Assembly (NCBI RefSeq): GCF_058153355.1
Contig: NZ_CM177019.1
Length of the DNA stretch: 64,000 nt
Direction: 5' to 3' (one strand)
Under the pieces are notes generated by a model that made no database searches, was not told the origin of the DNA, and saw nothing but the letters and a program-made list of their open reading frames with translations. Position numbers and translations under genes: made by a program. Positions within the stretch are counted from its first letter, which is position 1; every line of letters starts with the position of its first letter. This document shows, piece by piece, positions 25,680 to 25,754 of the stretch.

Positions 25680-25754
25680 TCAAGGGCGGTGATCGACAAT
25701 CTTGTTGTCAATATTGAACCATTTTGAGGTCACACATATATGTAAGATATTCAT
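25680..25754 (-). CDS. tnaC: tna operon leader peptide (24 aa, MNILHICVTSKWFNIDNKIVDHRP)
   Basis: Exact reverse-complement reading of atgaatatcttacatatatgtgtgacctcaaaatggttcaatattgacaacaagattgtcgatcaccgcccttga; about 200 nt upstream of tnaA; below ORF-track size cutoff. Confidence 0.95.
   Translation of the reverse strand: MNILHICVTSKWFNIDNKIVDHRP

What the first reader, a model, noticed from the sequence alone, without database searches (positions are those of the whole stretch)
25680..25754. tnaC leader peptide intact
The 24-codon tnaC reading frame and the ~200-nt spacer before tnaA are intact, so Trp-dependent attenuation control of tnaAB is likely preserved despite the foreign insert just upstream of the tna promoter. 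The insert could, however, affect promoter activity.
Basis: established knowledge. Interest (0 to 1): 0.15.

Follow-up and report, generated by a model that had tools for sequence, protein, structure and literature searches.

The report
Intact tnaC tryptophanase leader peptide
This is the ordinary, fully intact tnaC leader peptide gene that lets E. coli switch on tryptophanase when tryptophan is present; the foreign DNA next to it is a known, widespread effector pseudogene (espL3) that stops at the outer edge of the promoter's activator site.

Summary
Confirmed and ordinary. On the minus strand, 25754→25680 encodes MNILHICVTSKWFNIDNKIVDHRP followed by TGA. This is identical in protein to K-12 TnaC, with one synonymous base change, and it passes the curated tnaC_leader model. 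Trp12, Asp16, Ile19, Pro24, the UGA stop, the boxA-like CGCCCTTGA and the C-rich, G-poor tract after the stop are all kept. The spacer to tnaA is exactly 220 nt with no indel. tnaA (0 amino-acid changes) and tnaB (3 conservative changes) are intact.

The "foreign insert" is real. About 2.6 kb of 37% GC DNA (25848-28474) replaces K-12's 150-bp mnmE-tna spacer. Homology to K-12 resumes at 25847, the second base of the 22-bp CRP site. The insert carries espL3, a ShET2/EspL2-family type III effector gene, here broken by a 1-nt deletion. The same arrangement is found in 769 of 5426 complete E. coli genomes, including O157:H7, which produces indole through tnaA.

The core-promoter differences from K-12 are the majority E. 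coli allele and also occur in a strain without the island. Tryptophan- and Rho-dependent attenuation is therefore very probably preserved, but function was not assayed. Nothing here is novel.

The parts
25680..25754 (-). tnaC coding sequence: 24 codons plus a TGA stop, MNILHICVTSKWFNIDNKIVDHRP*
   Evidence: Translation. Identical protein to K-12 b3707, with 1 synonymous nt difference. TIGR02616 at 44.3 bits against a cut-off of 23.55.
25719..25721 (-). Trp12 codon (TGG), the strictly conserved sensor residue. Asp16 (GAC) is at 25707-25709 and Ile19 (ATT) at 25698-25700.
   Evidence: Read from the sequence. The residues' roles are described in PMC10941005 and PMC8429421.
25680..25688 (-). Arg23-Pro24-UGA (CGC CCT TGA). 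This is the stalling site (Pro24 in the P site, the RF2-read UGA in the A site) and also the boxA-like sequence.
   Evidence: Identical to K-12 in alignments A1 and A3. The mechanism comes from PMC8429421 and PMC10941005. The boxA-like assignment is my recollection of Konan & Yanofsky 2000, a paper not held in the library.
25640..25679 (-). Proposed rut (Rho-loading) tract immediately after the tnaC stop codon. It overlaps the proposed Spot42 pairing tract.
   Evidence: In the first 30 nt there are 11 C and 3 G (K-12: 11 C, 5 G). There are 3 substitutions against K-12, at 25665, 25655 and 25646. Predicted unpaired probability is 0.45-0.62, against 0.46-0.53 in K-12. The rut position is taken from PMC10941005 and the Spot42 site from PMC5748587.
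25460..25679 (-). The 220-nt tnaC-tnaA spacer, where RNA polymerase pauses and Rho terminates, ending in the tnaA ribosome-binding site
   Evidence: Same length as K-12, with 18 substitutions and no indel. The last 46 nt are identical to K-12. No intrinsic-terminator-like site is present.
25755..25826 (-). tna core promoter, 5' UTR and tnaC Shine-Dalgarno (GAGGA). Candidate -35 is TAGACA at 25807-25812. Candidate -10 is TATACT at 25787-25792 or TACTGT at 25785-25790.
   Evidence: There are 10 substitutions against K-12 in the 92 nt between the CRP site and the ATG. The same allele is found in island-bearing strains and in an island-free B1 strain and is the majority allele. The hexamer assignments are my own inference. 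The consensus scan finds the tna promoter in neither K-12 nor the window.
25827..25848 (-). CRP (CAP) binding site AATTGTGATTCGATTCACATTT of the class I tna promoter
   Evidence: The TGTGA-N6-TCACA core is invariant in all aligned strains. tnaC is cited as a class I Crp promoter in PMC5957442.
24044..25459 (-). tnaA (tryptophanase), 471 aa, intact
   Evidence: 0 amino-acid and 38 nucleotide differences from K-12.
22705..23952 (-). tnaB (tryptophan permease), 415 aa, intact
   Evidence: 3 conservative amino-acid differences from K-12 (L143I, S185T, I340V) and no internal stop.
25848..28474 (.). Low-GC segment that replaces K-12's 150-bp mnmE-tna spacer (the 'foreign insert')
   Evidence: 36.8% GC. 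No similarity to K-12's 150 bp. No flanking repeats, IS or tRNA. Found in 769 of 5426 genomes, always on the chromosome and in single copy.
26155..28325 (+). espL3-type ShET2/EspL2-family type III effector gene, transcribed divergently from tnaC. It is a pseudogene here: a 1-nt deletion near 27588 leads to a stop at 27616-27618.
   Evidence: Pfam PF07906 Toxin_15, E=2.8e-50. The gene is intact at 722 aa in strain 746. The indel was mapped. The Sakai orthologue is annotated as the espL3 pseudogene ECs_4642.
28405..28450 (.). Hairpin with 16-nt arms between the convergent mnmE and espL3 genes, a likely terminator
   Evidence: Inverted repeat I4, 94% complementary. On the mnmE strand it is followed by CTTGTTTTTT.

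Best explanation

Transcription starts at a CRP-dependent class I promoter. A ribosome then translates the 24-codon tnaC.

- **Low tryptophan:** RF2 releases TnaC at the UGA stop. The ribosome leaves, the C-rich rut tract directly after the stop is exposed, and Rho loads and terminates the paused polymerase within the 220-nt spacer.
- **High tryptophan:** free L-Trp binds in the exit tunnel next to the nascent TnaC (Trp12, Asp16, Ile19). RF2 then cannot hydrolyse TnaC-tRNAPro (Pro24 in the P site). The stalled ribosome covers the rut tract, and transcription continues into tnaA and tnaB.

Shown here: all the sequence elements are intact, and the operon is intact. Inferred from K-12 work: that these elements act in this way in this strain.

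The upstream espL3 island replaces only DNA distal to the CRP site and is most likely neutral for tna regulation.
For: - **Peptide identity.** The TnaC protein is identical to K-12, with a TGA stop. It passes the TIGR02616 equivalog model.
- **Selection.** Only synonymous variation is seen among nine alleles.
- **Downstream elements.** The spacer is 220 nt with no indel. The rut tract is 11 C to 3 G in its first 30 nt, and the last 46 nt before tnaA are identical to K-12. Predicted rut accessibility lies within the range of other natural alleles. No intrinsic terminator is present, as expected for a Rho-dependent attenuator.
- **Structural genes.** tnaA and tnaB are intact.
- **Promoter.** The CRP core is invariant. 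The promoter allele is the majority one: 3803 of 5403 genomes are at least 95% identical, while K-12 and K-12-type rows are 94.0%.
- **The island elsewhere.** The same island and junction occur in O157:H7, and EHEC O157:H7 makes indole through tnaA (PMC6550529).
- **Mechanism.** Taken from PMC10941005, PMC8429421, PMC12360218 and PMC5957442.
Against: No functional assay was possible. There are 18 substitutions in the spacer, and 3 of them fall in the rut/Spot42 tract, including one not seen in the closest relative (25646). Their quantitative effect is unknown.

The exact transcription start and the pause and termination sites were not checked against primary data, because Konan & Yanofsky 2000 is not held.

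The AT-rich island could in principle recruit H-NS near the promoter. However, the K-12 DNA at that position is even more AT-rich (29% against 35% GC in the adjacent 100 bp).
Confidence: 0.93

Rival explanations
1. tnaC is intact, but tna expression is quantitatively altered in this lineage. Two routes are possible. The espL3 island could change the DNA upstream of the CRP site (H-NS silencing, or loss of an upstream alpha-CTD contact). Alternatively, the lineage's spacer substitutions could change Rho loading, pausing or Spot42 pairing.
For: The island begins at the outermost base of the CRP site and is 37% GC. The window and its closest relatives share a cluster of spacer changes that other island-bearing strains lack. 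The C>T change at 25646 lies in the tract proposed to pair with Spot42 (PMC5748587).
Against: The DNA replaced in K-12 is just as AT-rich. O157:H7 has the same junction and produces indole (PMC6550529). The rut tract stays C-rich and G-poor, and its predicted accessibility is within the natural range. The C>T change would only turn a G-C pair into a G-U pair.
Confidence: 0.06
2. The ORF is a chance or decaying reading frame with no regulatory role. For example, the operon could be on its way to inactivation in this strain.
For: Short ORFs are abundant: 119 of at least 20 aa overlap an 8-kb interval. The neighbouring espL3 gene is decaying.
Against: The protein is 100% identical to TnaC and passes the curated HMM. 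Only synonymous variation is seen. tnaA differs from K-12 by 38 synonymous and 0 non-synonymous changes, which indicates strong ongoing purifying selection on the operon.
Confidence: 0.01

Closest known systems
E. coli K-12 tnaC (b3707) and the tnaCAB leader: a tryptophan-sensing ribosome-arrest peptide controlling Rho-dependent attenuation
   Same: The 24-aa peptide and the UGA stop are identical. The boxA-like CGCCCTTGA is identical. The spacer is 220 nt. The CRP core, the Shine-Dalgarno sequence and the 5' hairpin stem are identical. TnaA is identical.
   Different: One synonymous change in tnaC, 18 substitutions in the spacer, and 10 in the promoter/5'UTR, which together form the majority E. 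coli allele. K-12's 150 bp between mnmE and the CRP site is replaced by the 2.6-kb espL3 segment.
mnmE-espL3-tnaCAB locus of E. coli O157:H7 Sakai (ECs_4641 to ECs_4646)
   Same: Same gene order and the same junction at the CRP site. The tnaC nucleotide sequence is identical, and espL3 is also a pseudogene.
   Different: The island DNA is only about 87.5% identical. The inactivating lesion was mapped only for the window, as a 1-nt deletion near 27588. The window's lineage has additional spacer substitutions.
tnaC allele with a TAA stop, as in B1 strain O113:H21 FWSEC0010
   Same: Same peptide, same core-promoter allele and same 220-nt spacer.
   Different: That allele ends in TAA and has a G>A change 4 nt after the stop. 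It has no espL3 island. The window keeps the RF2-specific TGA.

Membership tests
TnaC tryptophanase leader peptide (NCBIfam TIGR02616) / tna attenuator | The protein matches the curated tnaC_leader equivalog model above its cut-off | tested here: met
   44.3 bits against a cut-off of 23.55, E=1.1e-11.
TnaC tryptophanase leader peptide (NCBIfam TIGR02616) / tna attenuator | A short ORF on the same strand, directly upstream of tnaA-tnaB | tested here: met
   tnaC is at 25754-25680, tnaA at 25459-24044 and tnaB at 23952-22705, all on the minus strand.
TnaC tryptophanase leader peptide (NCBIfam TIGR02616) / tna attenuator | Conserved residues Trp12, Asp16, Ile19 and Pro24, with Pro as the last sense codon (PMC10941005) | tested here: met
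   The sequence MNILHICVTSKWFNIDNKIVDHRP carries W12, D16, I19 and P24.
TnaC tryptophanase leader peptide (NCBIfam TIGR02616) / tna attenuator | A UGA stop codon read by RF2 (PMC8429421, PMC10941005) | tested here: met
   TGA at 25682-25680.
TnaC tryptophanase leader peptide (NCBIfam TIGR02616) / tna attenuator | A C-rich, G-poor rut tract immediately after the stop codon, and an untranslated spacer with no intrinsic terminator | tested here: met
   11 C and 3 G in the first 30 nt. The spacer is 220 nt. No terminator-like site was found. This is a test of sequence only.
TnaC tryptophanase leader peptide (NCBIfam TIGR02616) / tna attenuator | A CRP-dependent class I promoter upstream | tested here: met
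   The site AATTGTGATTCGATTCACATTT has a core identical to K-12. The class I assignment comes from PMC5957442.
TnaC tryptophanase leader peptide (NCBIfam TIGR02616) / tna attenuator | Tryptophan-induced ribosome stalling at Pro24/UGA, and Rho-dependent termination in the spacer | not testable with these tools
   This needs toeprinting, reporter fusions or an indole assay.
ShET2/EspL2-family type III effector (EspL3), for the neighbouring insert | ShET2 N-terminal domain (Pfam PF07906) | tested here: met
   E=2.8e-50, residues 146-390 of the 492-aa ORF 26140-27618.
ShET2/EspL2-family type III effector (EspL3), for the neighbouring insert | An intact full-length reading frame (722 aa in strain 746) | tested here: not met
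   A 1-nt deletion near 27588 gives a stop at 27616-27618, and the remainder lies in another frame. The closest relative is annotated as frameshifted.

The most novel reading that the evidence does not exclude
The lineage-specific cluster of spacer substitutions (three of them in the rut/Spot42 tract, one private to this sequence at 25646), together with the espL3 island abutting the CRP site, could measurably shift the basal or induced level of tryptophanase. The CRP site might also serve the divergent espL3 promoter. Either would be a natural regulatory variant of indole signalling in this E. coli lineage.
Probability: 0.08. Interest if true: 0.25.

Novelty: already known. Interest (0 to 1): 0.05.

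Why it matters
It matters little beyond correct annotation. The window carries a textbook regulatory element in its normal state, so the strain is expected to be indole-positive with normal catabolite and tryptophan control.

The useful clarifications are these:
- The "insert" is the known espL3 effector pseudogene locus, shared by about 14% of complete E. coli genomes.
- Its boundary leaves the CRP core and everything downstream of it untouched.
- K-12, not this strain, carries the minority promoter allele.

Tried and rejected
- **Rfam.** A scan of 20000-32000 at E≤1 found no hit. No match to any described RNA family was found, so this says nothing either way.
- **Consensus promoter scan.** It finds the tna promoter in neither the window nor K-12, so it is uninformative for this CRP-dependent promoter. 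Its only hit is an antisense match inside tnaC, which K-12 also has.
- **Is K-12's 150-bp spacer a remnant of the island?** I looked for similarity and found only chance-level short matches. The two forms are replacements of one another, not a simple insertion.
- **Mobility signatures at the island ends.** I looked for direct or inverted repeats and found none of significance.
- **Konan & Yanofsky 2000 (PMC94583).** I tried to read it for exact rut and boxA coordinates, but it is not held. Those coordinates rest on later papers and on my recollection.
- **EspL4.** I first guessed the insert was EspL4. The literature and the Sakai annotation show it is EspL3' (ECs4642/4643).
- **Is the promoter allele linked to the island?** Rejected: an island-free B1 strain carries it, and it is the majority allele.

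Full report
**Observation.** The reported interval 25680-25754 holds a 24-codon ORF plus a TGA stop on the minus strand. It translates to MNILHICVTSKWFNIDNKIVDHRP*. A short ORF by itself is not evidence of a gene: 119 ORFs of at least 20 aa overlap the 8-kb interval 22000-30000. What makes this one real is the following.
- The protein is identical to K-12 TnaC (b3707), with a single synonymous change (Lys18 AAA>AAG at 25701).
- It scores 44.3 bits against the curated NCBIfam equivalog TIGR02616 tnaC_leader (cut-off 23.55, E=1.1e-11).
- It sits 220 nt upstream of an intact tnaA (471 aa, 0 amino-acid and 38 nucleotide differences from K-12), followed by an intact tnaB (415 aa, 3 conservative changes).
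- Across nine E. coli alleles (the window plus eight loci fetched here), the five variable sense-codon sites in tnaC are all synonymous. That is about a 2e-4 event if the peptide were unconstrained.

**Regulatory anatomy.** The literature names Trp12, Asp16, Ile19 and Pro24 as the critical residues. It places a UGA stop read by RF2 at the end of tnaC and a rut site immediately after it. Rho terminates at pause sites in the untranslated spacer unless a tryptophan-stalled ribosome masks the rut site (PMC10941005, PMC8429421, PMC12360218). All of these elements are present in the window.
- Trp12 TGG is at 25721-25719, Asp16 at 25709-25707 and Ile19 at 25700-25698.
- CGC-CCT-TGA is at 25688-25680. 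This is identical to K-12 and is the boxA-like sequence as I recall it from Konan & Yanofsky 2000, a paper that is not held.
- The first 30 nt after the stop contain 11 C and 3 G, against 11 and 5 in K-12.
- The spacer is exactly 220 nt with 18 substitutions and no indel. Its last 46 nt, which include the tnaA ribosome-binding site, are identical to K-12.
- No intrinsic-terminator-like site occurs in 25400-26200, as expected for a Rho-dependent attenuator.
- The predicted unpaired probability of the rut tract is 0.45-0.62, within the spread of K-12 and seven other natural alleles.
- Rfam returned no match in 20000-32000.

**Promoter.** The CRP site AATTGTGATTCGATTCACATTT (25848-25827) has the same TGTGA-N6-TCACA core as K-12 and every other strain aligned. 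tnaC is cited as a class I Crp promoter (PMC5957442).

Between the CRP site and the tnaC ATG there are 10 differences from K-12. Eight of them cluster at 25804-25788, in the -35/-10 interval. They do not change the number of consensus matches under either plausible -10 register (AATAAT against TATACT, or TAATGT against TACTGT); this is my own reading. More importantly, this is the common E. coli allele. Over the 167 nt from the CRP site to the stop codon, 3803 of 5403 genomes are at least 95% identical to the window, while K-12 and K-12-type rows are 94.0% identical. The same core-promoter sequence occurs in an island-free B1 strain, O113:H21 FWSEC0010. The 5' hairpin stem and the Shine-Dalgarno sequence are unchanged.

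**The "foreign insert".** Homology with K-12 is lost upstream of 25847, on the side towards mnmE. It resumes only at the mnmE stop codon, around 28474. K-12's 150 bp between those two points is absent and has no counterpart in the window's 2.6 kb. The two states are therefore alternative segments rather than a simple insertion.

The window's segment is 36.8% GC, against 49% for the whole window. It has no flanking repeats, IS or tRNA. It carries one gene, divergent from tnaC, with a ShET2 N-terminal domain (PF07906, E=2.8e-50). RefSeq names it a ShET2/EspL2-family type III secretion effector. It is intact at 722 aa in strains 746 and THO-008. In the window it is broken by a 1-nt deletion near 27588, which gives a stop at 27616-27618. 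Its closest relative is likewise annotated as frameshifted.

In O157:H7 Sakai the same position holds the pseudogene espL3 (ECs_4642) between mnmE (ECs_4641) and tnaC (ECs_4644). This matches published effector lists, which give EspL3' as ECs4642/4643 (PMC2749873, PMC5931665). The segment is in 769 of 5426 complete E. coli genomes, always chromosomal and in single copy.

**Does the insert threaten tna regulation?** The evidence says probably not.
- It spares the CRP core and everything downstream of it. Only the outermost flank base of the 22-bp site (25848) differs from K-12, and it changes G to the consensus A.
- The DNA it replaces in K-12 is even more AT-rich: 29% against 35% GC in the adjacent 100 bp.
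- espL3 is transcribed away from tna, and a strong hairpin (28405-28450) separates it from mnmE.
- O157:H7, which has the same junction and the same tnaC sequence, produces indole through tnaA (PMC6550529).

A quantitative effect cannot be excluded without reporter assays.

**Lineage details.** The window is E. coli. Its best match among complete genomes is strain 2020CK-00188, at 99.3% over the leader region and 99.8% over the island. This lineage shares a cluster of spacer substitutions that other island-bearing strains lack. One change, C>T at 25646, is absent even from 2020CK-00188. It lies in the AGCCAAACCGATTAG tract, which I matched to the Spot42 pairing site from the mut4 oligonucleotide in PMC5748587. 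It would convert a G-C pair into a G-U pair, which is my inference.

**Verdict.** This is the already-known tnaC attenuator in an ordinary state, next to an already-catalogued effector pseudogene. Interest is low.

Noticed in passing
window 26155-28325 (+): The gene divergent from tnaC is an espL3-type ShET2/EspL2-family type III effector gene. A 1-nt deletion near 27588 inactivates it (stop at 27616-27618). It is intact at 722 aa in some strains and is a pseudogene in O157:H7 Sakai (ECs_4642).
   Followed up: yes
L006 793-867 (E. coli O113:H21 FWSEC0010) and about 1788 other complete genomes: About a third of complete E. coli genomes (1788 of 5399 at ≥99% identity to this 108-nt allele) carry a tnaC allele ending in TAA rather than the RF2-specific TGA. 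It also has a G>A change 4 nt into the rut tract. The window keeps TGA. TnaC is reported to inhibit RF2 preferentially, so this natural variant may deserve a functional comparison.
   Followed up: partly
window 44676-46110: An IS4-family transposase gene (44741-46087, NF033592 at 304 bits) truncates dgoD: the galactonate dehydratase match ends at 336 of 382 profile positions. It is followed directly by glgP (46135-48582, minus strand) and the glg/gntU region, which lies about 320 kb away in K-12. This is either an IS4-associated rearrangement or an assembly join. The closest relatives' matches end at about 44675.
   Followed up: partly
window 1-22000: This part carries an lpf-O113-type long polar fimbrial operon and type III effector-like or pentapeptide-repeat genes next to adeP, resembling the espY/espX cluster of O157:H7 Sakai. 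The first 1446 nt were not covered by the best-matching genomes.
   Followed up: no
window 25646: A substitution private to this sequence (C>T on the tnaC strand) that is absent from the closest relative. It lies in the rut tract, in the sequence I matched to the proposed Spot42 pairing site.
   Followed up: partly
window 25729-25757 (+): A sigma-70-like match (GTCACA-17-CATAAT) antisense to the start of tnaC. The identical match exists in K-12, so it is not specific to this strain.
   Followed up: no
window 24044-25459 (-): tnaA differs from K-12 at 38 nucleotide positions, and every one of them is synonymous. This is a striking sign of purifying selection on tryptophanase.
   Followed up: yes
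window 28473-28475: The mnmE stop codon itself differs from K-12 (TGA against TAA). The divergence of the alternative mnmE-tna segment therefore starts inside the stop codon.
   Followed up: no
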